A stretch of 57,427 nucleotides of DNA, counting the filler, from Sphacelaria rigidula (Eukaryota), in the NCBI GenBank assembly GCA_964200075.2. It is 2 parts of 2 records of this genome, joined end to end, with 100 filler letters (N's around TTAATTAATTAA, not from the genome) between each part and the next. Parts side by side here need not be neighbours in the genome. Positions count along the whole stretch, not along the records: positions 1 to 28,704 come from CAXNAA020000095.1; 1 more part is not named here. One strand, written 5' to 3'. Position 1 is the stretch's first letter; every line of letters starts with the position of its first letter. Of this stretch, positions 2,433 to 52,012 are shown one piece after another. The translations under genes and the position numbers were made by a program. A model generated the notes under the pieces. It searched no databases, was not told the origin of the DNA, and saw only the letters and a list, made by a program, of their open reading frames with translations.

Positions 2433-4307
2433 TACACCCTGGACAATACAATATGTTTCCAATATATATTAGTCGATCGTATTGGAATTTTGCGATATAT
2501 TGCCGGTGTAATATATATTGGTACCCTTAGACTTCACATATATTGCGCGCCCAATATATATTGATGTCGTGGGACTGCATACGTATTGCCCGCCCAATAT
2601 ATATTGGTACTATTGGGTTGAACACATATCGTCCCATCAATATATATTGGGGCAGCGTGGGTGACAATGTATTGGCCGGTCAATATATATATGAGAAATT
2701 ATAAGTATCGTGTACGCTCTAGGAGAGATTCAGACGCCATGGATGCCGGAGCCCGTGCAGATTGGGAAAAGCTTCAAAGGGAGCCGCAGAACTTCTCTTG
2801 AATTACTGCGGAAAGTTGTCGAATGCGTTCGATATATATATATATATTTATATATCACACCCTGGACAATACAATATGTTTCCAATATATATATATTAGT
2901 CAATCATATTGGAATTTTGCGATATATTGCCGGTATAATATATATTGGTACCCTTAGACTGCACATGTATTGTGCGCCCAATATATATTGATGTCGTGGG
3001 ACTGGGTACATATCGCCCGCCCAATATATATTGGTACTATCGGGTTGAACATATATTGTCCCATCAATATATATATTGGGGCAGCGTGGGTGACAACGCA
3101 TTGGCCGGTCAATATATATGAGAAATTGTAAGTATCGTGTACGCTCTAGGAGAGATTCAGACGCGATGGATGCCGGAGCCCGTGCAGATTGGGAACAGCT
3201 TTAAAGGGAGCCGCAGAAGTTCGCGTGCATTACTGCGGAGAGTTGTCGAATGCGTTTGATATATACATATATATATATATATATGTATACTGGTGAGAAA
3301 ATATGGTGACAGAAGAGGCGACCCGGTACATATGCCTCCTGATACCTATCTGTTCACCAGTGCGGGGCCGCCCACCCCGTTTCCAGCATGTAATATAAAT
3401 ATCTTGGCTAAACATCACAACGACAGGAAACGCGGGTCGATATGCGCTTTTTGGTACCCCTGTGGTCACCGGGGCTATGTTGCTCATACCCTGGACAATA
3501 TAATATGTTCCAATATGATACCAATATTTTGCATTGGAGATTGGAGCCAGCGCAAATATTGTTCTTTCAATATACAATGTGTTGAGCTGTCCTCGGAGAT
3601 ATTGAAGCAACAACATATCTTGCTCGTGTCATGATCATGAAGAAATGTACGTCAATATATATTGGACATGCAATTGCTCCGAGAATAAAACGTTCAATAT
3701 ATATTGAGTCGAGGCGATGCGTAGCATATAGTTACCATAATATATGTTGAACGCAAATCATGCAGAAGTAGTGTTTTTCCAATATAATGAACACGCTTGC
3801 GGAGGAATACATGGGAGCATTTTCGGCATGTAAAATACGTCTTTGAAAGGCGCCCGCGAACAAAGAACTGCTCACCATACTAATTCTAATACACTTTCCA
3901 ATCTATGTTGAAAATCAATATAGTTTTCTGCACCAACGTGTATTGTGACCGTCGGTTCCCTCGTGTATTGTCCGCCCAAGATATATTGGACGCATTGACG
4001 CACGACCTATTGGGGCGGCAATATATATTGGAGCTTCAGGTGTCGAGTATGTTGAATCGTCAATATATATTGACCTCGCGAGGCATCAAATATATTACTC
4101 GGCCAATACATATCGAGGTGGCGCGTGTCGTGATTTATTGTTTGGTCGATATATATTGCATTTCGCGAGCCTTGATATATTGATGGTACAATATATATTG
4201 ACCCTCTCTCGTGTCATCATATTGCTCGCCCAATATATATTGACCATCCGACGCGTCGATATATTGAGCGGGCAATATATATTACATATTGTATTGTCCG
4301 GGGTGTG
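2433..4307 (+). mobile_element. Non-autonomous hAT-like element (family 1, copy A) with duplicated left end
   Basis: Termini (T)ACACCCTGGACAATACAATATG ... CATATTGTATTGTCCGGGGTGTG. Flanks GAATTCTT / GAATCGTT (6/8 match, degenerate 8-bp TSD). Dense CAATATATATTG motifs. The first ~420 bp (2433-2855) is repeated from a second CACACCCTGG at 2856. Confidence 0.85.
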
Positions 4308-5439: not shown

Positions 5440-6410
5440 CATAGCTCGAGCTAGCTCTTTTTTGGCGTAGCTCCCTCGTGATCTATGAGAGCTACGTGAG
5501 CTACGCATCTTTTTCCTGGAGTGAGCTATGAGAGCTGTATGAGCTACACATGTTTGCCCTACGTGAGCTACCAACCCGTAGCTCATCAGCTCATATTAGC
5601 CCTGGTTGAGCTATGACAGCTGCATGAGCTACGCATGTTTGCCCCGGATGAGCTGTGACAGCTGCATGAGCTACACATGTTTGCCCTGGATGAGCTATGA
5701 GAGCTACGGGAGCTACGCATGATTGCACTGCTTGAGCTCACGAGCTACGGGAGCAACGCTGATCTTGGAGTTGTTTCTGTTCCGATGCTCATGCACGTTG
5801 ATATTGTACGTACGTGACAACGGTTAAATGTGCACACACCTGTTCCGTTTCGTGTAGCGATGCATTTGCTTTCTGTAAACATCAACAATCAACATGGCTG
5901 CATCAGAAGCCATCCGCATCATAGCCACCGCATACACAACCACAGACGCACACACGACCACACACACAGAACTCGCCCTGCATGCCTTGGGTGAGCTATC
6001 GAGCGTAGCTCATCCGCATATGTTTTCCCTGGGTGAGCTGTAAGAGCTAGGTGAGCTACGCATGTTTGTCTTGCGTGAGCTACCGGACGTGGATCATCCG
6101 CGCATGTTTTCTCTGGGTGAGCTATGAGAGCTGTATGAGCTACGCACGTTTGCGATATGTGAGATACCAACCCCTAGCTCATCAACTCAGATTTGTTCTG
6201 GGTGAGCTCTGAGAGCTGCATGAGCTATGCATGTTCGCCCTGGGTGAGCTACCAACCCGTAACCATCAGCTCACATTCGCCCTGGATGAGCTATGAGAGC
6301 TGCATGAGCCACGCATGTTTGTCCTGGGTGAGCTACCAACCCGTAGCTCACATGTACATGTTTGGCTACAAGTAAGCTACCGCCTGCCGATGAGCTAGCT
6401 CATGAGCTGT
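5440..6410. repeat. AGCT-rich 42-bp minisatellite in two blocks (5440-5760, 5985-6410) with two unit types
   Basis: Unit A GGTGAGCTATGAGAGCTGCATGAGCTACGCATGTTTGCCCT and unit B GGTGAGCTACCAACCCGTAGCTCATCAGCTCA...GCCCT. GAGCTAGCTC palindromes at 5448 and 6392. Confidence 0.9.
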
Positions 6411-15410: not shown

Positions 15411-16069
15411 CTCCCTCTGTCCCATAAGTAAAGATACCTAACGGCGATAAATTGTTTAGGTATGCCAGTGATGGCGACGATGTTGTGGTTGGGTTTGTTA
15501 AAAAGGCAAAGCGCAGACGAAGCTGATGAAAAATAAATAAATATATATATATATGTTTTCATCATTAGAACTATATCGAAATATACCACACCCTGGACAA
15601 TACAATATGTTTCCAATATATATTAGTCGATCATATTGGAATTTGGCGATATATTGCCGGTGCAATATATATTGGTACCCTTAGACTGCACATGTAATGC
15701 GCGCCCAATATATATTGATGTGGGACTGTGTACATATTGCCCGCCCAATATATATTGGTACTATTGGGTTGAACACATATTGTCCCATCTATATATATAT
15801 TGGGGCAGCGTGGGCGACAACATATTGCACGACCAATATATATTAGGGTCGCATTGATGAGAACATATTGACCGGTCAACAATATATATTGGGGCAGCGT
15901 GGGTGACAACGCATTGGCCGGTCAATATATATTAGGAATTATAAGTATCGTGTACGCTCTAGGAGAGATTCAGACGCGATGGATGCCGGAGCCCGTGCAG
16001 ATTGGGAACAGCTTTAAAGGGAGCCGCAGAAGTTCGCGTGCATTACTCCGGAAAGTTGTCGGATGCGTT

Positions 16070-16113
<44 letters not shown>

Positions 16114-17690
16114 ACTGGTGAGAAAATATGGTGACAGAAGAGGCGACCCGGTATATATGCCTCCTGATGCCTATCTGGTCACCAGTGCGGGGCCACCTAT
16201 CCCGTTTCCAGCATGTAATATAAATATCTTGGCTGAACATCACAACGACAGGAAACGCGGGTCGATATGCGCCTTTTGGTACCCCTGTGGTCACCGGGGC
16301 TGTGTTGCTTATACCCTGGACAATATAATATGTTCCAATATGATACCAATACTTTGTATTGGAGCCAGCGCAAATATTGTTCTTTCAATATATGTTGTGT
16401 TGAAATGTCCTCGGAGATATTGAAGCAACAACATATCTTGCTCGTGTCATGATCATGAAGGAATGTATGTCAATATATATTGGACATGCAGTTGCTCCGA
16501 GAACAAAACGTTCAATATATATTGTGCATGCCGGCCGTGTATGTACTGAAGTGTCAATATATATTTAGTCGAGGGGATGCGTAGCATATTGTTACCATAA
16601 TATATATTGAACGCAAACCATGCAGAAGTAGCGTTTTTCCAATTTATATTGCGCACGCTGATCGGATAGCTATTGTGCAGCCAATATATATTGAACCTCG
16701 CTTGCGGAGGAATACATTGAGCATTTTCGGCATGTAAAATACGTCTTTGAATGGCGCCCGCGGACAAAGAACTGCCCACAATACTAATTCCAATACACTT
16801 TTCCAATCTATATGTTGAAAATCAATATATTTTGCTACATCAGCATGTATTGTGACCGTCGGCTCCCTCGTGTATTGCCCACCCAATATACATTGGACGT
16901 ATTGGCATATTGGGTCAGCAATGTATATATATTGACGCTTCGAGTGTCGAGTATATTGAATCGTCAATATATGTTGACCTCGGGTGACATCAAATATATT
17001 ACTCGATGAATATATATTGGTGCCTTCTCGCACGAACATATTACTCGGCCAGTATGTATCGAGGTGGCGCGTGTCGTGATATATTGTTCGGTCGATATAT
17101 ATTGCATGTCGCGAGCCTTGATATATTGATGGCACAATGTATATTGACCCTCTCTCGTGTCATCATATTGCTCGCACAATATATATTGACCATTCGACGC
17201 CTCGATATATTGAGCGGGCAATATATATTACATAATGTATTGTCCAGGGTGTGAAATATACCCCTTTTTGTATATTTTTGATCCATTTTCTCCTCATCAT
17301 TGACCGATTTTGGACGTTTTTACGCCGAGCACTAGCAATTACATGCTAACAAAATGTTGGACGGGGCGTGCGTAGGTTTATATTACGGACATGTCTAAAA
17401 TCAATGGGGGTTTCGCGATTTTCACACATATTTTGGCCCATTTTTCGCGATTCTTCGTGTACCCGGGTCTATCATGCTTTCGTGGGAAAACGAGCGAAAT
17501 ATGGCCGTTTTTGGACCGACCTACTTTTTCTCGGCCGCGCGATTGCATGGTTCAAGCACAAGCTGCAAATTTTCAACACATTTTCTCCACCCAAAAAACA
17601 CCGTATAGTTCATTGGAAAGAAAAAAAACGATCGGACATCGTTAAGGGCCCGTACAAGTTTAGGTACCTTTGCTTATGGGACAGGGGAAG
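15411..17690. mobile_element. Tc1/mariner-type (Stowaway-like) MITE, ~0.6 kb once the nested hAT copy is removed
   Basis: 31-bp TIR CTCCCTCTGTCCCATAAGTAAAGATACCTAA (15411-15441) matches the reverse complement of 17660-17690 at 27/31. TA on both sides. Confidence 0.88.
15587..17253 (+). mobile_element. Non-autonomous hAT-like element (family 1, copy C, full length ~1.67 kb)
   Basis: TIR CACACCCTGGACAATACA / TGTATTGTCCAGGGTGTG. Perfect 8-bp TSD AAATATAC (15579-15586 and 17254-17261). No coding capacity. Colinear with copy A. Confidence 0.9.
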
Positions 17691-20600: not shown

Positions 20601-21840
20601 ATTCACACGTTCATCCTTCATCTCCTGGTTGCGCTGAGTCTTTGTGTGCTGAGTAGGTCCAGCATTCAGCAAGGCACTGACTTAGCTTTTTGCATGAAGA
20701 GGGAGGAGTGCCAATATTTGTTACTTTTGTTCTCTGACCGGTCTTTTACAGGTGCCTGCCCCTCAGTACATCTTTCTGAGCTATCGGTTGGTGAATGGGT
20801 CGATATTGACCGAGAATGAAATGGGATTCCGTACATTTTCGTTTGGATTGCCGACCCATTCATGGAAGGATCAAAATCTGTTGTTTACACTGTTTTCAGT
20901 AGTGTGGTTTCACGTGCTTGTTCGATCAGTCTCCGTATTCGGGTGTTGTATGAATGTCAACGGATGTTGCGGAGACCGAAGGTTTGTAGCCGTCCGTCGC
21001 CGAGGATCCCACTTGCCTTTTGAGGCCCGGAGTCCTCGGCCGGTTGTGTCAATACGCACCACTACGTCAGTAGCACGAAATAATGCAGAAACGGTCAGTA
21101 TGGTACTTATGACGACGACCTTCAAATCTTCTCAAGCATACCACTTCATACGACCAGATGGCTAAACTTGAGTCAAGGTACTTTCAGAGACACCTGTGAT
21201 ATACATACATTCGATTTTTGTCAAGCCTTTCTGCATGACGCAACTCACGACACCGAGGGGTGGGCTATGAATTGCTTGTGAAGGCTCGAGATCTTACTTT
21301 CAATGATGAAAACAATATCAACCCGTAGTTTGTTTTTCGATCGATATCGTTTACCTTTACTGCTGTTTTCGGCCGTGGTGTATGACATGTGTTGGTGTTG
21401 CGTTTTACATGAGCTGCACAATCCGGTGGAGGATCCGGTAGAGGAAATATGCAGGGTTTTGCCAATTTCTCCACCGGAAGCATCGGCAGCACTACGTTCT
21501 GTTTCCGAAGTGGAACGTTTGACAAGGCAAACGCCTCACTGATTTCGCCACATAGTGAAGGCCCATGCGAAATATAAACAGCCTGTGTTTACCGTTTTCC
21601 CTCGAAGTACTGTATGTCACGGTTGACGAACGCTTGACAATCTTGACGGCTTTTGAACCGTTTAATATTCTCAGGCAGCATCAAGAGGAACTACCAGCTC
21701 CTCTGTTCGGTCATGTAACAGTGGGACTGCTTGAAGCAGCCGAAATTGTGTGCGCTAGAGCCTCTCGCTTTATCGGCGTAGGGGTGATACGAGCTTGGCA
21801 GTGCGCCCAGGAGGGCTGCTTGGAATGACCATCAGATGGC

Positions 21841-24084
21841 ATGACGGGCGTCAACGTCGTGGAGGTGTCGGTGAACAGGGTTGGGATTGCCGATGAAGAA
21901 AGCAAGGATTGCGTCACCGAGGGCTGCTCCAAGAAACCATCGCACGGTGTAGCGGGAAGCCGGATGGCGGAGTTCTGCGCCACCCACGCAAGGTCGGGGA
22001 TGACCAATTTGACGAGCAAGAAGTGCGGCAACGAGGGCTGCTCCGAACAGCCATGTTACGGTGTAGCGGGAAGTCGGAAGGCGAAGTTCTGTGCTGATCA
22101 CGCGAGGATGGGGATAGTCGATGTAAGGAGCAAGAAATGCGGCCACCAGGGCTGCACCAAACAATCATCGTACGGTGCAGCGGAAAGCCGGAAAAGGGAA
22201 TTCTGTGCCGAGCACGCCAGGCTGGGAATGGTAAATGTAGTAAGTAAGAAGTGCGGCCACGAGGGCTGCTCCAAACAGCCATCGTACGGTGTATCGGGAA
22301 GTCGGAAGGCGGAGTTCTGTGCCGATCACGCCAGCGTGGAGATGACCAATGTAGTGAGCAAGAAGTGCGGCTACCAGGGCTGCTCCAAAATCCCATCGTA
22401 CGGTGTAGCGGGAAGTCGCAAGGCGAAGTTCTGCGTCGACCACGCCAGGTTCGGGATGGTCGATGTGAGGAGTAAGAAGTGCGGCAACGAGGGCTGCTCC
22501 AAAATTTCATCGTATGGTCAAGCAGGAAGCCGGATGGCGGAGTTCTGTGCCGCCCACGCCAGGTGTGGGATGATCAATTTGATGAGCAAGAAGTGCGGCA
22601 ACGAGAGCTGCTCCAAAGTCCCATCGTACGGTGTAGCGGGAAGTCGGTTGGCAGAGTTCTGTGTCAACCACGCGAGGGTGGGAATGGCCAATGTAGTTAA
22701 CAAGAAGTGTGGCGACGAGGGCTGCTCCAAGAGTCCGTCGTACGGTGTAGCGGGTAATCGGTTGGCGGAGTTCTGTGCCGATCACGCAAGGGTGGGAATG
22801 GTCAATGTGAAGACCAAGAAGTGCAGCAACGAGGGCTGCTCCAAGATCCCATCGTATGGTTTAGCGGGAAGTCGCAAGGCGGCGTTCTGTGCTGATCACG
22901 CCAGGTCCGGGATGGTCGATGTGGTGAGCAAGAAATGTGGTAACGAGGGCTGCTCCAAAATCCGAACGTACGGTGTAGCGGGAAGTCGCAAGGCGGAGTT
23001 CTGTGCCAATCACGCCAGGTCTGGAATGGTCGATGTGGCGAGCAAGAAGTGCGGCAACGAGCGCTGCACCACACGACCATCGTATGGTGTAGCGGGAAGC
23101 CGGAAGGCTGAGTTCTGTGTCGACCACGCCAGGTCAGGGATGGTCGATGTGGCGAGCAAGAAGTGCGGCAATGAGGGCTGCTCCAAACGACCATCGTATG
23201 GTGTAGCGGGAAGCCGGAAGGCGGAGTTCTGTGCCGACCACGTCAGGTCAGGGATGGTCGATGTAGTGAGCAAGAAGTGCAGCAACGAGGACTGCTCCAA
23301 ACGACCATCGTATGGTGTAGCGGGAAGCCGGAAGGCAGAGTTCTGTGTCGACCACGCCAGGTCAGGGATGATCGATATAGTGACCAGAAAGTGCAGCAAC
23401 GATGGCTGCTCCAAACGACCATCGTATGGTGTAGCGGGAAGTCGGAAGAGGGAGTTCTGTGCCGATCACGCGAGGGCGGGGATGATCAATGCGGGGAGCA
23501 AAAAGTACCGCAACGAGGGGCGCTCGAATCGGCATGTGTACCACGTTGATGGCGTCGAAGAGGGTAGCTTATGCCAACGTGCCGTATCTCGAGCACCCAA
23601 GGGAGAGCAACATCGAGACATGTTCGATGAACATTTTACCCATGACGGACAACCAAATCATTCCACTAGTCACAATAGTGGTGCGTGTGGTGTCAGGTTC
23701 GGCTCTGTTTTGCTCGTAAGTTCCGAATATGTTGGTTCGCAGCCTGCCGAGGACACCGAACGAGGACCTCTGGGGACAAGGCCACACGTGAGGGTGAAAT
23801 CGGAAGTGTCTGCTCACCTTCAGCGTCCCAAGCAGACCCCGCGAAGGAGGGTTGGCGTGGCCACTTACTCCGATGAAGGTGGGGGCAGTGGGATTGACAG
23901 TAACTCCAGCGATAGTTGTGATGAAAGAATGAAAAAGCGGACTTGCAAGACGCCATCGATCGTTCGTGAACAGCTTCGGCCAGAAGATGCTCTTGTGGAT
24001 GCTTCTTCAGTGATATTCCAAAGCAAGGAGGAAGACTTGAAGATGGAGCTCGCAGTTTCGGCTCCGTTACCCGGCCTTGCGTAA
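21841..24084 (+). CDS. EsV-1-7 cysteine-rich repeat protein (14 x 38-aa C-x4-C-x16-C-x2-H repeats plus low-complexity C-terminal tail), single exon
   Basis: 747-aa uninterrupted ORF. Repeat consensus CGNEGCSKxPSYGVAGSRKAEFCADHARSGMVDVVSKK occurs 14 times (21910-23505, 114-bp period), with a degenerate 15th unit (YRNEGRSNRHVY). The pattern matches the EsV-1-7 motif known from Ectocarpus siliculosus virus-1 and brown algal proteins such as IMMEDIATE UPRIGHT. The true start is uncertain because an in-frame degenerate unit with a TGA lies just upstream. Confidence 0.9.
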   Translation: MTGVNVVEVSVNRVGIADEESKDCVTEGCSKKPSHGVAGSRMAEFCATHARSGMTNLTSKKCGNEGCSEQPCYGVAGSRKAKFCADHARMGIVDVRSKKCGHQGCTKQSSYGAAESRKREFCAEHARLGMVNVVSKKCGHEGCSKQPSYGVSGSRKAEFCADHASVEMTNVVSKKCGYQGCSKIPSYGVAGSRKAKFCVDHARFGMVDVRSKKCGNEGCSKISSYGQAGSRMAEFCAAHARCGMINLMSKKCGNESCSKVPSYGVAGSRLAEFCVNHARVGMANVVNKKCGDEGCSKSPSYGVAGNRLAEFCADHARVGMVNVKTKKCSNEGCSKIPSYGLAGSRKAAFCADHARSGMVDVVSKKCGNEGCSKIRTYGVAGSRKAEFCANHARSGMVDVASKKCGNERCTTRPSYGVAGSRKAEFCVDHARSGMVDVASKKCGNEGCSKRPSYGVAGSRKAEFCADHVRSGMVDVVSKKCSNEDCSKRPSYGVAGSRKAEFCVDHARSGMIDIVTRKCSNDGCSKRPSYGVAGSRKREFCADHARAGMINAGSKKYRNEGRSNRHVYHVDGVEEGSLCQRAVSRAPKGEQHRDMFDEHFTHDGQPNHSTSHNSGACGVRFGSVLLVSSEYVGSQPAEDTERGPLGTRPHVRVKSEVSAHLQRPKQTPRRRVGVATYSDEGGGSGIDSNSSDSCDERMKKRTCKTPSIVREQLRPEDALVDASSVIFQSKEEDLKMELAVSAPLPGLA
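21910..23505 (+). repeat. Coding tandem repeat, 14 x 114 bp
   Basis: Each unit starts at a TGC/TGT codon after ...aagaag and has an exact 114-bp period. Units 11-14 are nearly identical at the DNA level. Confidence 0.95.
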
Positions 24085-25858
24085 GTGTTGTCAACACGAA
24101 CGAGAGTTGGAGTGATTCTGAAACGCTTGCTGCTCGCCGACCTGTAGCTCAGCGGCCGCTTTGCCGGAAGAGCGTGGTGGAATATTCGCATTCGCCGCCG
24201 CAGCCCCCTTTTTCGTGCGTGTCGTTGCGGCAGGGTGGAGCTGTTCTTGTGTGACCATGGTGATGCCTGCGCCAGAGTTATGTTTCAACTGAGTCCTTGG
24301 TGGAAAAAGCAGTTCGCGCAAGTGTGTGTTTTTGTTGTTGTAGCGGGTATGAACGCTGTGATGCCTGTCCTGTTGATTGGCACACGTACAGTGTACTGCA
24401 AAATATTCATGCGTCAGGTGCTGCTTTGCTGTGAGTTCTGTATCAGCACCCTGGCCTCTATGTTCGCTGCGAACAAATCCTGTATCGCAAATGGAACAAC
24501 CGACTTATCGAGGTTGTCACATGTTCGTGAGAAAACGTATAGCTTGTGCACTTTCCAGCTCCCAACACTCGGCAGATTAAACATGTGAGTTGAGGGTGTC
24601 GGACGGCTCAGCGAAGAGTGTAGTTGTGGTATCGTGGGTCAGAGGGGCCGGCATGTACAGTAGACTTTCGGTGTGAGTGGCAAGTGAGTACGGGAAAAAA
24701 TATAAATGATTCGTCACCAGGTCGATAGCAGCTGAGACAGTACTTGCGCGGCTGGAAGGGGGTATGTCATCCGTTCAACACCCCTCGTTGCTGCTACCCC
24801 GCTCTCCTCTTGCTGTCTCTGGTCCTTGTTGGGGCAACAACAGCAGTTGATCGACTTTCATTGATTTCAACATTCGTGCTATACTTGTATCGGTGCTACA
24901 GCCCGTGAGTAGGGCCTGGACGGGGTCGCACGTTTTTTGCCTCTGGTGGAACCAGCCTGTAAAAGACTGAACCAATGCGAAGAAAAATCGAGTTAGGTCT
25001 GCCACTCCCTGAATCGAGAAGCAAAGTTGGAGCTTCATGCTGAGATCTTAGAACTAGATGAGTGACCGCAACACCCTCAAGTCGCAGGATAGTAATCGTG
25101 CGCGTTTATGAGTTCAATCATGAAGACATGGGTTGAATCCAGTATGATGCGGTGCCAATGAACGGTATTGGCGTGCTGTTCTGGTATGTTGGGTTTATGT
25201 TTTCTTGATTGAGCATGTCCACGGCGCTCGTAGACGTGAAATTGGGTTGCCGATGTAGAGATCCGAGCAAATCGGCTGTGTTGGACTCATTTTCATGGGG
25301 TCGAATCTCGATTCTGTTTCGATTTTCTGCATGAAAAATGGTGTTGCCTTGGGCGTTTTTCGTCTCACATAGTTTTTTTGTGTCAGCAAATCTGTGACAG
25401 AAAACCTCGTATTTTTCAGAACTTTGGTTCCAACGCAGTCGTACATCGATGAGTCAACTCATGATTATCCTCGTGCTGGTGGTGTGTGTCTACATATCTC
25501 CATGCACTCGTACTGTAAGTTGTACAGTGACGCGGTGTAGCGTACGGAGTATCGCTGCGCAGCAAGTTAGTTACCAACTGTCGCTACGAGTATACCTGCG
25601 TTTCTCTGTATGTGTCGGCCGATACATGTGTGTACAGGGTACAGGATATACAAGAGGACAATCAGTAGACCTCTCACTACAAGCCAGTTATTTGTACGTT
25701 TCGTGGTGCTACAGATATGTCTACTCGCTAGCAGCCAAAGACAAAATAATCCACAGGTCGGACGAGTCACTATTCGTTCAAACGAGTGCACTCGTGGATG
25801 TTTCTCGAAACATTACGAGCATGATTCGTGCACTCGAGTCATTACTTTTTTTTGACAA

Positions 25859-26100
25859 CGAGCAATGACTCGAGTGCTCGTCCCATTCATTTGTTCCCAC
25901 AGCGAGCAGTGACTCGAGTACTCGCCCCTTTCATTTGTTTCCACAACGAGCAGTGACTCGAGTACTCGCCCTTTTCGTTTGTTTCCACAGCGAGCAGTGA
26001 CTCGAGTACTCGCCCTATTCGTTTGTTTCCACAACGAGCAATGACTCGAGTGCTCGCCCTATTCATTTGTTTCCACAATGAGCAATGACTCGAGTGCTCA
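25859..26100. repeat. 44-bp minisatellite, 5.5 copies
   Basis: CGAGCA(A/G)TGACTCGAGT(A/G)CTCGCCCT(A/T)TTC(A/G)TTTGTTTCCACA(A/G), starting at 25859, 25903, 25947, 25991, 26035 and 26079. Confidence 0.95.
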
Positions 26101-31173: not shown

Positions 31174-33342
31174 CACACTCTGGACAATGGGCACTATAAT
31201 AGTCCATTGCTTCAGCAATAGACACGGGGGGAACCTATCGATACATATTGTCGAACATGATCGATGGTGAAACACATATATTGATATGTATTGCAAGGGG
31301 CAATAGATGTTGCATTAGTCGAGCGGTAGCGCATAATGGCAGCACCACATGCCAGTACTACAATCGGTAGACTGTACCTGTATCTTGTTGTGGTATTCCC
31401 TTGTACTGGGCCAGGTCATACTTTGTACAAGGACTAACTGTGCGCTGCTTGCACCATAGCGGCGCCATGAAGTGTCGGATCATGCACAAGTGTACATGCG
31501 TGGTGTAGAGATTCCACGTCGTGTTTCCCGTGAGAATCGGTGCTTCCGAGTGTCGAGTATGCACTCAACCCACACAATTACATCGTCTCTCGCAGGAGCG
31601 TTATCGTCAATCTCTTGTGCAAACCGTAGCCCTATCCTCAGCTCGAGCCCTAACCTCAAGAAGAAGCACCAATATTCTGTGCACGCGGTAGACTCCATCT
31701 GCTGCCACGTCGCTCTCTCATCAGATCCGCTGTTTCCGCGTGGGCCCCTGGTCATGGTGATGCCAGCATCTACACCTTGCCAAAGGCCGCTGTCAAATGA
31801 GTAAGGCATGGAAAGTTACATTAGATACGGATCACTCGCCATCGATGAAAATCGTGTACCGCAATAGGTTCTGGGATCTATATATCGATAGTCATCGCCG
31901 TAATCAAAAGGTTTGGTGAGCCATCCATCGATAGTCATTGCCTTTATCAATAGATTTGGTGAGCCATCCATCAACACCAATTGCCGTCATGAAGGGATTT
32001 GGTGAGCCGTCTATCGGTAGCCTCTGCCGCCAACAGTACATTATTGGGTATCCATCAATATGGCCATTGCCGTCAACAATCAGTTGTTGTCGGTAGCACC
32101 TATCGATAGCCAGTGACGCCAACGATAGGTTTGAAAAATATATTGCTCACTCTAGTGGTTTTAAGACATCAACGGCAGTGTCCCTCACACATGAAAACGC
32201 AACTACCTGAGGCGATAGCTGGCCACAGCTTCGCTGGAATAAGGTGAAACATACATGCAAAAATGTGCATACATAGCGCTAGTGATCGACGCCATTCAGC
32301 TACTTTTGCGGTAAGCAATAGATATTGGTGGCCGCGTTTCAGATTCTACTGACCCTCAATAGATATTGGTGGGCGCAATTTAGATCCTATTGTGACCAAT
32401 TATATGTATTAGTGGCCGCGTGGCAGAACCTATTGTGATGAGCAATATACATTAGTGACCGCAATCCAGAGCCTATTGCAACAAATTTAATGTATCGATA
32501 GACAACTTGACCCCTCCATTGTTACGGCAATGATACATTCTATCCCTTGTCCCGAATCTATTGTCGCCCACAATAGCTATCGACAGACATGGATGCCAGT
32601 CGATCATAACCGACATTGAACATTGGCAGTCAAATTTTCGGGGCTAGTGCAGCGCCAATGTTTTATGGCGCAGTCTTTTGTCCAGGGTATAAGCACACCT
32701 TACCCACACACAAAAGTATTGTAAGCGCCCACGTCCATCAGAGGAACAGTCATATGTACCAACACCACATCAACAACAAAAGTTGTGAACTTTTGTCCAC
32801 ACGTATTGCGGATTGCTACAAAATACACGCGTTTCAAAATTGTAGAAACGTGATGTCATATAGTCACAAGTAGTATCATCATATTCCCACTGCATGTCCA
32901 CCTGCGGCTTCTCTACCGTACTTCACGGAGTATGATATGCCCTATATGTAGTATGTTGCGATGTAGGTGTGGCAATAGACGATAGAGAGTATCTATCGGT
33001 AGGTATTGTATACCACAGTAGATTATGGTATGTATCTATCGACATTCATTACTGACTTGCATGGATTTTGTACGCAACGTATCACTAGCGATTGCCGCCA
33101 TCAATAGATTTGGCACGCGGTCTATCGATAGCCATTGCCGTCATCGATAAATTTCGGCGTAGGGTCACAACAAACTGCTACCCGGAAAAAAATGCGGGAA
33201 ACTGGTCTATCGATAGACATTGTCAACAACAACATAAAAGAGAAAGTTGCCGATCAAAGGCCAGTACGGACGACAACATTGGCACCTACTGCAGCAGATT
33301 CTATTGCTATTGCAATAGATGCCCTCTTTTCTCCAGGGTGTG
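31174..33342 (-). mobile_element. Non-autonomous hAT-like element (family 2) carrying a captured host intron/exon fragment
   Basis: Termini CACACTCTGGACAAT (31174) and TCTCCAGGGTGTG (ends 33342). Flanks GTTGAGCT / GTCGAGCT (7/8 match, 8-bp TSD). CTATCGATAG-type motifs. Internal TIR-like TTGTCCAGGGTATAAGCA at ~32678. Segment 31337-31809 is homologous to 33752-34223. Confidence 0.8.
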
Positions 33343-50831: not shown

Positions 50832-52012
50832 CACACCAGTCTGATCACTTTTCTACGCCCAAAATCTGATCAAGCCGCTTCTTATAGACTGAAAAAAAGT
50901 CTCTGAGAAAAGTATTTTTGGTCAGTTTCCGGAGACGCTTTTCAGGACGCGACCTCATAGGGTTGTTTTTCATGGAAAAAGCCTTCAGAAACTGACCAAA
51001 ATTCCCAGACAGCGGAATTTTCATAAATCTCCCTGCGAAAAGCCATCGATTCCCAGAGACTTTTCCCCGTCTGGGAATCGGCGTTCCATCACACATTCCT
51101 CGCACACCGCATCCGCAATGGTACAGTCAGTGCTCCATCACACACTCCTCGCACACAAGCGTAGTATAGTCAGTGCAAATGTAGCCGTGCATGTTGTATG
51201 TACAATACCGTGGCAACAGCATAGCTGCTGCAGCACTCCGTGCATCCTCTTCATGACCGTAGGACCAGGGACAGGCAGTACAGACAGTAAAGTGCTGTTT
51301 TGCCGGCCGAGTTACTACCGTAAAATAGCACGATGTCGCCCGTGCTGGCTGCGTTGACTGCTCGTATCGTTTCATACTCGTCGTGCCCGCCTCCGATTGC
51401 GAACTCTGTGGTATTCTGGGTACTGAGACGGTTGCTACCGCACTACCATCTGTCCGGTGAGTTTGTTGTGTGCGGTATGACACAAACCGTCTGCAACATA
51501 CACTGCACCGCTTGCGACACGACTGCTGTACCAAGCGGCGATCGGCTGAAGTAAAGGTTGATACGCCTGTCATTTCGATCCCTATTCTACCAGTAGCTAC
51601 TGTGTGTGTGTGTGTGTGGAGGGGGGGGGGGGGGGGGGCACCCCTCGTTCCGCCCCCCGGGGGGGGAGGATGAACGTTTTTAGTTTTCCGGGCGGNNNNN
51701 NNNNNTGTCTTTGCGTCTCGGTGGCTGCGTGGGGGTGTGGGTGGGGGTGGGGGGGGGGGGGGGTGGGGGGGGGCATCCCATCTATCCTGCACCTCGACGG
51801 GATTATTCACGTGTTCAGTTTACCGCAGGTGGCACAAGCACAAAATGCAAATGATGACCCTCGTGTGTGCAAATCCCCAGTATTTTCCCTAGACTATAAG
51901 GTGGAGTTTTGAAAACTGATTTCTCTGGGAAGAGTCTCTGAGAAAATTCGTCCAAAATGACTTTTCTCAGAGGCGTTTTTCAGACTAAAAGAAGCGGCCT
52001 CACACGGGTGTG
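50832..52012. mobile_element. Probable non-autonomous TIR element with CACAC termini and long imperfect inverted ends
   Basis: 50875-50920 (GCCGCTTCTTATAGACTGAAAAA...CTCTGAGAAAAGT) is inverted at 51950-51998. Termini CACACCAGTCTG / CACACGGGTGTG with AT on both sides. Extra TCACACC motifs at 50752-50831 and CACACCCGTGTG at 50406. Superfamily and left boundary are uncertain. Confidence 0.5.

What the first reader, a model, noticed from the sequence alone, without database searches (positions are those of the whole stretch)
21910..23505. 14-unit EsV-1-7 zinc-ligand array with fixed scaffold and position-specific hypervariable residues: a candidate modular recognition code
Seen: C1, C6, G13, R18, F22, C23, H26 and K38 are invariant in all 14 units, and Y12 is present in 13. 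Variation is concentrated at position 9 (K,Q,Q,Q,I,I,V,S,I,I,R,R,R,R), positions 24-25 between the last Cys and His (AT,AD,AE,AD,VD,AA,VN,AD,AD,AN,VD,AD,VD,AD), position 29 (S,M,L,V,F,C,V,V,S,S,S,S,S,A) and 32-36. The units are basic and joined without spacers. Known: EsV-1-7 repeats occur in a brown algal virus and in the developmental regulator IMMEDIATE UPRIGHT; I know of no established ligand. Inference: a constant scaffold with a few variable slots resembles TALE, PPR and PRDM9/KRAB-ZNF arrays. This could be a programmable nucleic-acid-binding array, possibly aimed at viral or TE sequences.
Basis: partly seen in the sequence, partly recalled or inferred. Interest (0 to 1): 0.8.

Follow-up and report, generated by a model that had tools for sequence, protein, structure and literature searches.

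The report
Fourteen-unit EsV-1-7 zinc-repeat gene
This is an intact gene for a protein made of fourteen small zinc-binding repeats of a family already known to be very large in brown algae, and relatives that carry a DNA-cutting domain suggest that such repeat strings hold on to DNA, though nobody has shown it.

Summary
An open 747-codon frame (21841-24084, +) carries 14 spacerless 38-residue C-x4-C-x16-C-x2-H units at 21910-23505. Pfam calls all 14 EsV_1_7_cys (E 7e-205).

It is a new member of a known, very large family: 6410 representative clusters and 2018 brown-algal genes in print. The 38-residue period and arrays of up to 17 units are normal for the family.

The "fixed scaffold, few slots" picture is only partly right. 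30 of 38 positions vary. Positions 9, 29 and 35 hold 21.5% of unit-to-unit differences, with omega about 1.

In orthologue pairs of relatives these same positions change no faster than average. They distinguish units but are conserved, not hypervariable.

A role in DNA binding gains indirect support. 188 of 284 distinct related array proteins end in a Vsr/I-Bth0305I-like nuclease fold. This window's protein lacks it.

The scan had noted that fusion before on other DNA (giant viruses); I re-tested it here. A per-unit recognition code remains untested, and the repeat has no solved structural relative.

The parts
21802..21840 (+). Decayed remnant of a repeat unit just upstream of the start codon. 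It lies in the same frame and is interrupted by a stop at 21826-21828.
   Evidence: The in-frame translation upstream of the ATG reads C-A-Q-E-G-C-L-E-stop-P-S-D-G. That is a C-x4-C knuckle with the family's E-G-C. Calling it a decayed unit is inference.
21841..24084 (+). Open reading frame of 747 codons plus stop. It is by far the longest ORF in the window.
   Evidence: ORF lists. The next longest ORF is 306 aa. GC3 is 0.65.
21841..21909 (+). 23-residue N-terminal leader before unit 1.
   Evidence: No Pfam match.
21910..23505 (+). Array of 14 spacerless 38-aa EsV-1-7 Cys3His units. Units start at 21910, 22024, 22138, 22252, 22366, 22480, 22594, 22708, 22822, 22936, 23050, 23164, 23278 and 23392.
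   Evidence: TRF. Motif scan. Pfam PF19114 in 14 stretches. Alignment A1. All 56 putative zinc ligands are intact.
23050..23391 (+). Units 11-13, the most alike in the array (89-92% nucleotide identity). Probably the most recent duplications.
   Evidence: Identity matrix. These units share R9 and S29.
23506..23619 (+). Decayed 15th unit. Three of the four ligand positions are lost: C1 to Y, C6 to R, H26 to A.
   Evidence: Tail sequence. TRF extends the DNA repeat to 23519. The register is by eye against the consensus.
23620..24081 (+). Non-repeat C-terminal tail. It has no recognised domain, no nuclease remnant and two short basic patches. The 192-aa tail region from 23506, which includes decayed unit 15, has pI 6.5.
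   Evidence: Pfam finds 0 families. The nuclease-core HMM scores 0.2 bits. Composition. The best BLASTP match to relatives' tails has E 0.043.

Best explanation

Shown:
- A single uninterrupted frame encodes 14 head-to-tail 38-residue units.
- Each unit has an intact Cys-Cys-Cys-His ligand set.
- The array is flanked by a decayed unit on each side and followed by a domain-less tail.
- The 114-bp unit multiplied by tandem duplication without any indel.
- The scaffold is under purifying selection.

Inferred:
- Each unit binds one zinc ion and folds into a small strand-and-turn knuckle.
- Neighbouring units pack directly onto each other, giving an elongated basic rod of about +3 charge per unit.

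Most likely mechanism (inferred from relatives, not shown): the rod binds nucleic acid, most probably double-stranded DNA. About two thirds of related arrays sit in front of a Vsr/I-Bth0305I-type nuclease domain, where such an array would be the targeting part. This protein has no nuclease, so it would act as a DNA-bound regulator or chromatin protein, not a cutter. That fits the one studied family member, the developmental regulator IMM.

Residues that differ between units (9, 29, 35 and their neighbours) may give each unit its own contact preference. A one-unit, one-base code is not shown.

Rough odds: family membership 0.98, zinc-stabilised array 0.85, nucleic-acid binding 0.5.
For: Repeat anatomy.

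Family membership: Pfam PF19114 at 662.9 bits in 14 stretches. 301 homologues at E<=1e-3 among the scored candidates, with the named ones mostly brown algae. 6410 representative clusters at E<=1e-3.

Family norm: the 38-aa spacing accounts for 365 of the recorded unit spacings in 120 homologues.

All 56 ligands are intact.

Fold: an AF2 model of units 9-12 has pLDDT 90.6 and pTM 0.53, with the same strand, turn and strand elements in each unit and a bridge between residue 38 and position 9 of the next unit.

Charge: array pI 9.4, net +3.3 per unit. Basic residues at positions 8, 18, 19, 37 and 38 are shared by nuclease-linked and nuclease-free arrays.

Nuclease fusion in relatives:
- A conserved core of about 127 aa occurs in 206 of 304 array proteins, or 188 of 284 distinct ones: 138 of 228 from the protein searches and 50 of 56 from giant-virus contigs.
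- It lies C-terminal of the array in 180 of 193.
- Its model has pLDDT 80.4 and pTM 0.74.
- Weak Foldseek rows are almost all nucleases of that fold.
- D, E-x-D-E and H are nearly invariant.

I-Bth0305I is a DNA-cleaving homing endonuclease with a Vsr-like C-terminal domain (PMC3239194, abstract).

Unit-specific residues are conserved between orthologues in relatives.
Against: - No result here shows zinc or nucleic-acid binding.
- The nuclease fusion is absent from this protein, from every frame of the window and from all 27 named brown-algal hits checked. Only 9 of the 30 most similar proteins have it.
- The inference therefore crosses from units only 29-47% identical.
- Nuclease-free units differ systematically from nuclease-linked ones at conserved sites: G13 against N13, A27 against K27, E21 against L or I, and S17 against E17. 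This could mark a change of partner.
- The only match to a known DNA-binding family is below threshold: SBP at 19 bits against a cut-off of 27, in one four-unit segment. It was seen in 0 of 14 single units and 0 of 63 homologues.
- I could not obtain model coordinates, so surface mapping was not possible.
Confidence: 0.5

Rival explanations
1. One reading: a programmable, modular recognition array. Each unit reads a fixed piece of a nucleic-acid sequence through a few slot residues (9, 24-25, 29, 32-36), as in TALE, PPR or C2H2 zinc-finger arrays.
For: - Across 95 distinct arrays of the family, position 9 is the most variable position within arrays. Position 36 ranks 2nd, 35 ranks 3rd and 29 ranks 6th. 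Their within-to-between-array diversity ratios are 0.94, 0.91, 0.88 and 0.77.
- Coupling between the same position in adjacent units is lowest at 9, 10, 33, 34, 36 and 37, so these residues are set unit by unit.
- These residues are conserved between orthologues. Omega is 0.13 in 5 viral DNA pairs. The difference rate is 0.27 against 0.86 within arrays in 5 nuclease-free protein pairs covering 32 units. They are therefore not neutral.
- Fusion of arrays to a homing-endonuclease-type nuclease in relatives calls for sequence-specific targeting.
Against: - The variation is not confined to slots. 30 of 38 positions vary here. Positions 9, 29 and 35 hold 21.5% of differences here and 12.4% family-wide.
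- All non-ligand positions are about equally conserved between orthologues. Whole units are individual, not just slots.
- In this array position 9 runs in blocks (K, QQQ, II, V, S, II, RRRR). 7 of 13 neighbours are equal against 2.16 expected, P 0.001. The blocks track overall unit similarity, as block duplication would give.
- The residues at the 'slots' here are often I, V, L, M or F.
- The weak couplings place 9, 24, 29 and 33-36 at the junction between units (z 2.2-2.9). That could equally mean packing contacts.
- No ligand, no solved structure and no unit-swap data exist.
Confidence: 0.2
2. A zinc-stabilised protein-protein or other non-nucleic-acid interaction scaffold. The sites that differ between units are surface or packing residues with no reading function.
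For: - Nuclease-free units have replaced the K27 that is conserved in nuclease-linked units by A.
- Omega is about 1 at positions 9, 29 and 35 within the array.
- Per the 2026 preprint's passages, no EsV-1-7 gene of Ectocarpus has another Pfam domain, so there is no DNA-related context in algae.
Against: - The strongly basic charge is kept and even raised in nuclease-free arrays: 2.93 per unit, and 3.29 here, against 2.17 in nuclease-linked arrays.
- The fusion partner in two thirds of relatives is a DNA nuclease.
- Unit-specific residues are conserved in orthologues.
Confidence: 0.2
3. An RNA-binding array. The same rod reads single-stranded RNA instead of DNA.
For: - Basic charge.
Against: The best match of that domain is a DNA homing endonuclease, and then Vsr in complex with duplex DNA. 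Nothing in the window speaks for RNA.
Confidence: 0.07
4. A recently amplified, functionless or decaying repeat gene in a fast-turning-over family.
For: - Decayed units at both ends.
- A tail with no conserved relatives.
- Thousands of contigs of the same organism lie on the repeat at 90-95% likeness, so close paralogues abound.
- The unit tree is unresolved, with 0 of 11 inner branches well supported.
Against: - 747 codons stay open.
- 56 of 56 ligands are intact.
- No indel occurs in 1596 bp of repeat.
- Omega is 0.29 at scaffold codons.
Confidence: 0.03

Closest known systems
EsV-1-7 cysteine-rich repeat family (Pfam PF19114 / IPR043822): EsV-1 gene 7, Ectocarpus IMMEDIATE UPRIGHT, and the expanded brown-algal gene family
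   Same: - Same motif, C-x4-C-x16-C-x2-H.
- Same 38-residue spacerless period.
- Like the Ectocarpus members, no other Pfam domain is present (the 2026 preprint passages).
- The closest named relatives are brown-algal.
   Different: - 14 units is at the high end. Of the 115 relatives scanned with Pfam, 4 have 14 or more stretches: P0018 and P0020 with 15, L039 with 14 and L046 with 17.
- Units here are more alike (mean identity 0.70) than in most arrays (median 0.54). 12 of 95 arrays are as uniform.
- No orthologue was found: the best hit is 47% identical over 58% of the query.
Giant-virus and metagenome proteins that join an EsV-1-7 array to a C-terminal Vsr / 'EDxHD' (I-Bth0305I-like) nuclease domain
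   Same: - Same repeat family and period.
- Arrays of 3-17 units.
- Shared basic positions 8, 18, 19, 37 and 38.
   Different: - The window's protein has no nuclease core.
- Its units carry the nuclease-free signature G13, S17, E21 and A27.
My full-text search for 'EsV-1-7' (11 papers hold the term, 9 listed) and a search for 'nuclease' inside the 2026 preprint (0 occurrences) found no printed description. Macaisne et al. 2017 was not held.
SBP-box DNA-binding domain (PF03110), first zinc site
   Same: - Cys3His ligand type (PMC5768680 passages).
- One unit aligned without gaps to SBP profile positions 1-34 of 75.
- The identical ligand spacing in SBP is recalled, not tested.
   Different: - The score is below threshold (19 bits against 27).
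- It was seen in 1 four-unit segment only, in 0 of 14 single units and in 0 of 63 homologues.
- There is no second zinc site or NLS block.
- SBP did not appear in the profile or fold searches.
TALE, PPR and PUF repeat arrays (modular one-repeat, one-base readers; properties recalled)
   Same: Tandem units of 34-38 residues without spacers, with some positions that differ from unit to unit.
   Different: - Those are helical solenoids without metal. This model has short strands and turns around a presumed zinc site.
- Variation here is spread over 30 of 38 positions.
- No ligand is known.
C2H2 zinc-finger arrays (KRAB-ZNF, PRDM9; properties recalled)
   Same: A string of small zinc modules, with basic charge and growth by tandem duplication.
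   Different: - Different ligand set and spacing, and no zf-C2H2 match.
- No excess of amino-acid change at the variable positions: omega about 1 within the array and 0.13 between viral orthologues.
WRKY19-type zinc finger (Pfam PF24906)
   Same: The first 11-13 profile positions match the C-x4-C start of units in 6 of 63 homologues. One of them, P0051, scores 36.2 bits against a cut-off of 27.
   Different: - No match in the window's own protein at E<=0.01.
- Only the knuckle is shared.
- I know of no established function for that domain either (recalled).

Membership tests
EsV-1-7 cysteine-rich repeat (PF19114) | Match to the family profile above the curated cut-off | tested here: met
   662.9 bits against 25, E 7.3e-205, 14 stretches. 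Each of the 14 single units matches, with a best E of 1.6e-18.
EsV-1-7 cysteine-rich repeat (PF19114) | C-x4-C-x16-C-x2-H ligand pattern in each unit | tested here: met
   14 of 14 units.
EsV-1-7 cysteine-rich repeat (PF19114) | Tandem arrangement with a period of about 38 residues | tested here: met
   The period is exactly 38 aa here. 38 is the commonest spacing in 120 homologues: 365 cases, with the next commonest at 33.
EsV-1-7 cysteine-rich repeat (PF19114) | Zinc binding by the four ligands | not testable with these tools
   Needs metal analysis of the protein. [quoted passage not shown]
Array-nuclease proteins of giant viruses (EsV-1-7 array plus Vsr/EDxHD-like domain) | C-terminal nuclease-fold domain with conserved D, E-x-D-E and H | tested here: not met
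   The core HMM finds 206 of 304 relatives but not the window's protein. The tail scores 0.2 bits with all filters off. No frame of the window matches the core part of the profile: the best hit besides the array ORF has E 0.065.
TALE/PPR/PUF-type modular readers | Helical-repeat solenoid fold | tested here: not met
   The AF2 model of 4 units (pLDDT 90.6) has only three-residue helical turns and short strands.
TALE/PPR/PUF-type modular readers | Near-constant scaffold with variation confined to one to three code positions | tested here: not met
   30 of 38 positions vary. The top three positions hold 21.5% of differences here and 12.4% family-wide.
TALE/PPR/PUF-type modular readers | One unit contacts one base (or a fixed number of bases) of a nucleic acid | not testable with these tools
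   Needs binding assays or a complex structure.
C2H2 zinc-finger arrays (KRAB-ZNF/PRDM9) | C2H2 ligand set and zf-C2H2 profile match | tested here: not met
   The ligands are C, C, C, H with other spacing. There is no zf-C2H2 family among the Pfam matches.
C2H2 zinc-finger arrays (KRAB-ZNF/PRDM9) | Positive selection (omega above 1) at the contact positions | tested here: inconclusive
   Omega is 1.04 at positions 9, 29 and 35 between units, but synonymous sites are saturated (pS 0.60). Omega is 0.13 at these positions in 5 orthologous viral pairs. No orthologue of this gene is available.
SBP-box domain (PF03110) | Profile match above the cut-off, covering both zinc sites and the NLS | tested here: not met
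   19 bits against 27, covering profile positions 1-34 of 75 only. 0 of 14 single units at E<=1. 0 of 63 homologues at E<=0.01.

The most novel reading that the evidence does not exclude
EsV-1-7 arrays are a fourth kind of natural modular DNA reader, after C2H2 fingers, TALEs and meganuclease-type domains. Each 38-residue zinc unit would contact a fixed step of DNA through unit-specific residues clustered at the junction between units (9, 29, 33-36). Giant viruses would use such arrays to aim Vsr-type homing nucleases. Brown algae would have kept the arrays without the nuclease and multiplied them into hundreds of sequence-specific regulators, this 14-unit gene being one with a long target.
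Probability: 0.15. Interest if true: 0.85.

Novelty: new member of a known kind. Interest (0 to 1): 0.4.

Why it matters
[quoted passage not shown] It is the largest orthogroup in a 2026 comparison, and it includes the developmental regulator IMM. Its molecular activity is still unknown.

This gene adds nothing new in kind. It is, however, a clean test object: 14 regular units, fairly uniform, with no other domain.

Two results bear on the wider question and make it testable at the bench:
- Two thirds of the related arrays sampled carry a homing-endonuclease-type nuclease.
- Residues that distinguish units are conserved between orthologues.

If the arrays read DNA unit by unit, they would explain a large lineage-specific regulator family. 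They would also be a new scaffold for designed DNA binders.

Tried and rejected
1. Known fold for the repeat.
- Foldseek against the PDB: best E 1.3.
- PDB sequence-profile searches with A1 and A2: only chance rows at E 0.75 and 0.8.
- ESM Atlas: no usable hit.
- A weak or missing match does not show that the fold is new.

2. SBP relationship. One sub-threshold hit was not reproduced in single units or homologues. I keep it as a lead only.

3. Viral insert. The 18 other ORFs of 150 aa or more in the window gave no Pfam family, except one weak DUF6349 hit at E 0.0015. The neighbourhood is not gene-dense, so this is not a giant-virus insertion.

4. Expression. No RNA holder is listed.
- Runs X6 and X8 are only guessed to be RNA and come from one study.
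- Their contigs cover 23455-23917, 24052-24237 (X6) or 24084-24237 (X8), and about 24372-25036, with 0-3 other letters.
- Little was laid upstream of 21669 or beyond 25073.
- I do not count this as evidence of transcription.
- Repeat-number variation between strains could not be read, because contigs break inside the repeat.

5. Own genome. None is held, so paralogues and orthologues of this gene could not be collected.

6. Tree of the 14 units. It is unresolved, with 0 of 11 inner branches starred, so descent and selection at position 9 cannot be separated on it. Position 9 needs 7 changes against 8.7 in shuffles, and 37 of 500 shuffles do as well.

7. Per-site counts on reconstructed ancestors.

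8. One search grouped viral ORFs by length alone and mixed unrelated genes, so its counts are void. One search repeats the analysis on pairs of 78-89% identity only.

9. Clustering of non-repeat regions. The first cluster of 231 regions was partly glued by degenerate repeat units. The brown-algal members dropped out once the profile was cut to the nuclease core.

10. Coupling analysis on 921 unit pairs.
- It is dominated by same-position couplings between neighbours, which reflect shared descent.
- Only 28-31, 2-21, 13-17, 33-36 and 15-7' stand out (z 4.4 or more).
- Couplings involving positions 9, 29 and 35 are weak (z up to 3.2 for 20-35, 2.9 for 9-29).

11. Mapping positions 9, 24-25 and 29 onto a face of the model. 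The tool returns no coordinates, so this was not possible.

12. The first search of viral contigs with A2 failed for lack of conserved columns. A1 worked.
Full report
**1. The observation**

The window holds one long open frame, 21841-24084 on the + strand. It has 747 codons, against 306 aa for the next longest ORF in the 57 kb.

Tandem Repeats Finder reports a 114-bp period, 14.2 copies, 81% matches and no indels at 21901-23519. Translation gives 14 units of exactly 38 residues from 21910 to 23505. Each matches C-x4-C-x16-C-x2-H, and the motif occurs nowhere else in the six frames of the window.

- The array is basic: pI 9.4, net +3.3 per unit.
- Pfam assigns all 14 units to PF19114, EsV_1_7_cys (662.9 bits, cut-off 25).

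Some corrections apply:
- The most variable positions are 35, 29 and 9 (2.41, 2.36 and 2.32 bits).
- Position 24 is only A or V.
- Positions 3 and 19 also vary.
- 30 of 38 positions vary somewhere.

**2. Anatomy beyond the given coordinates**

- Just upstream of the ATG, in frame, lies the remnant of another unit: a C-x4-C knuckle followed by a stop at 21826-21828.
- Just after unit 14 lies a 15th unit that has lost C1, C6 and H26.
- The remaining tail matches no Pfam family and no relative's tail convincingly (best E 0.043).
- The other long ORFs of the window have no Pfam domains, so this is not a gene-dense viral insertion.
- No whole genome is held for the window.

**3. The family**

- The word-index protein search found 301 relatives at E<=1e-3 among the candidates scored. 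The named ones are mostly brown algae, such as Sphacelaria, Ectocarpus, Pylaiella, Scytosiphon and Ascophyllum. The best hit is only 47% identical over 58% of the query.
- The exhaustive search of 1.84 billion representatives found 6410 clusters at E<=1e-3 and 1040 at E<=1e-30.
- Passages of 10.1101/2024.02.19.579948 report 2018 EsV-1-7 genes in 31 genomes, up to 335 in one species and often in tandem gene clusters. [quoted passage not shown]
- Passages of 10.64898/2026.04.27.720984 call it the largest orthogroup. They say no Ectocarpus member has another Pfam domain.
- Macaisne et al. 2017 was not held.
- The spacerless 38-residue period is the family norm: 365 recorded spacings, with the next commonest at 33.
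- Arrays of 13-17 units exist elsewhere.

So this is a new member of a known kind.

**4. Is there a fixed scaffold with a few hypervariable slots?**

Within this array:
Synonymous sites at those three positions are saturated (pS 0.60).
- Those three positions hold 21.5% of all unit-to-unit amino-acid differences here, against 12.4% on average in 95 distinct arrays of the family.
- This array is simply more uniform than most: unit identity 0.70 against a median of 0.54, with 12 of 95 arrays as uniform.

Family-wide:
- Position 9 is the most variable position within arrays. Position 36 ranks second, 35 third and 29 sixth.
- Position 9 is among the positions least coupled to the same position in the neighbouring unit.

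Back in this array:
- Position 9 runs in blocks. 7 of 13 neighbours are equal against 2.16 expected, P 0.001.
- The blocks go with overall unit similarity. Units 11-13 are 89-92% identical, and units 5, 9 and 10 are 85-87% identical. Block duplication would give this pattern.
- The unit tree itself is unresolved.

**5. Orthologue comparisons in relatives**

No orthologue of this gene was available, so I used relatives.

| Comparison | Positions 9, 29, 35 | All (non-ligand) unit positions |
|---|---|---|
| 5 distinct pairs of giant-virus genes, 78-89% nucleotide identity (omega) | 0.13 | 0.16 (ligand and core positions: 0.03) |
| 5 nuclease-free protein pairs with unit-by-unit correspondence, 32 units (difference rate between orthologous units) | 0.27 | 0.26 |
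| The same 5 pairs, within arrays (difference rate) | 0.86 | 0.69 |

The residues that distinguish units are therefore conserved, not fast-evolving. This argues against a PRDM9 or KRAB-like arms race and against neutrality. It leaves room for unit-specific roles. But it holds for whole units, not only for a few slots.

**6. Structure**

- An AF2 model of units 9-12 was built with an alignment of 131 rows. It has pLDDT 90.6 and pTM 0.53.
- Each unit shows the same elements: a strand at 12-14, a bridge at 22, a helical turn at 24-26 and a strand at 31-33. A bridge links residue 38 to position 9 of the next unit.
- The units therefore seem to pack on each other instead of being loose beads. It is not a helical solenoid.
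- The tool returns no coordinates, so I could not test whether the variable positions line one face.
- Couplings computed from 921 unit pairs weakly link position 9 to 29 and 24 of its own unit and to 33-38 of the preceding unit (z 2.2-2.9). This is compatible with a patch at each junction, but it is near noise.

**7. What the array may do**

Earlier notes of this scan on other DNA (e1-625064, e1-5509634, e1-5548908) reported giant-virus genes that join EsV-1-7 arrays to a Vsr-type nuclease. I tested this independently.

- I fetched 77 giant-virus loci with the unit profile.
- I clustered the non-repeat parts of 304 array proteins and cut the resulting profile to its non-repeat core.
- That core of about 127 residues occurs in 206 of 304 proteins, or 188 of 284 distinct ones: 138 of 228 from the protein searches and 50 of 56 from viral loci. 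It lies C-terminal of the array in 180 of 193.
- Pfam does not name it. One member each, of 41, gave a weak hit to DUF2726, DUF559 and Hjc.
- Its model has pLDDT 80.4 and pTM 0.74. The best matches are:
  - then restriction enzymes and Hjc.
- The weak Foldseek rows point the same way.
- I-Bth0305I is a site-specific DNA endonuclease with a Vsr-like C-terminal domain (PMC3239194, abstract).

In such proteins the array is the natural candidate for the DNA-targeting part.

The window's protein lacks the domain. So do all 27 named brown-algal hits checked and 21 of the 30 closest hits. Its units carry the nuclease-free signature G13, S17, E21 and A27, while sharing the basic positions 8, 18, 19, 37 and 38.

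A sub-threshold match of one unit to the first zinc site of the SBP DNA-binding domain was not reproducible.

**8. Verdict**

The best reading is a zinc-stabilised, basic, rod-like array that binds nucleic acid, probably DNA, without cutting it. I put nucleic-acid binding at about 0.5.

- A protein-interaction scaffold remains a serious rival (about 0.2).
- The gene itself is an ordinary new member of a known family.
- The wider question of what EsV-1-7 arrays bind is open and now directly testable.

**9. Limits**

- No orthologues or paralogues of this gene were available.
- There is no evidence on expression: no RNA holder is listed, and the contigs laid are described under Tried and rejected.
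- I had no model coordinates.
- Supplements of the bioRxiv papers were closed.
- The nuclease link rests on predicted structures and on relatives whose units are 29-47% identical to this array's.

Noticed in passing
window 21802-21840 and 23506-23619: The array is flanked by decayed units on both sides. The upstream in-frame remnant has a C-x4-C knuckle cut by a stop at 21826-21828. The downstream 15th unit has lost three of its four ligands.
   Followed up: partly
window 21836-23505 (read laying): In the four runs laid, 1876-2890 contigs per run lie on the 5-kb stretch, and more than half of them fit at only 90-95% likeness. Summed depth over the repeat is 10-500 times that of the unique flanks. 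The organism therefore holds very many closely related EsV-1-7 repeat copies.
   Followed up: no
loci L001-L077 (giant-virus contigs) and 138 of 228 database proteins: Most EsV-1-7 array proteins outside brown algae end in a conserved domain of about 127 residues that Pfam does not name. One member each, of 41, gave a weak hit to DUF2726, DUF559 and Hjc. The domain's model best matches the I-Bth0305I and Vsr nuclease fold.
   Followed up: yes
family-wide, unit positions 13, 17, 21, 27: Nuclease-linked units favour N13, E17, L or I at 21, and K27. Nuclease-free units, including this window's, favour G13, S17, E21 and A27. This is a clean split that might mark a change of partner or of packing.
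   Followed up: no
window 2434-3282, 4174-4283, 5479-6350, 15732-15933, 17078-17229, 25855-26099, 31884-32029: There are many minisatellites with periods of 42-44 bp or multiples of that. Several share an ATATATTG-rich unit. One at 25855-26099 has 5.6 copies at 92% match, about 1.8 kb downstream of the gene.
   Followed up: no
window 21832-23544, minus strand: Long minus-strand and off-frame ORFs of up to 198 aa lie inside the array. They are shadows of the repeated, G-rich coding sequence (GC skew 0.21 in 22001-24000), not genes.
   Followed up: partly
window 51127-51810, minus strand: A 227-aa ORF has a weak sub-threshold match to DUF6349 (E 0.0015, 19.1 bits against a cut-off of 25). A run of N lies at 51696-51705 inside it.
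   Followed up: no
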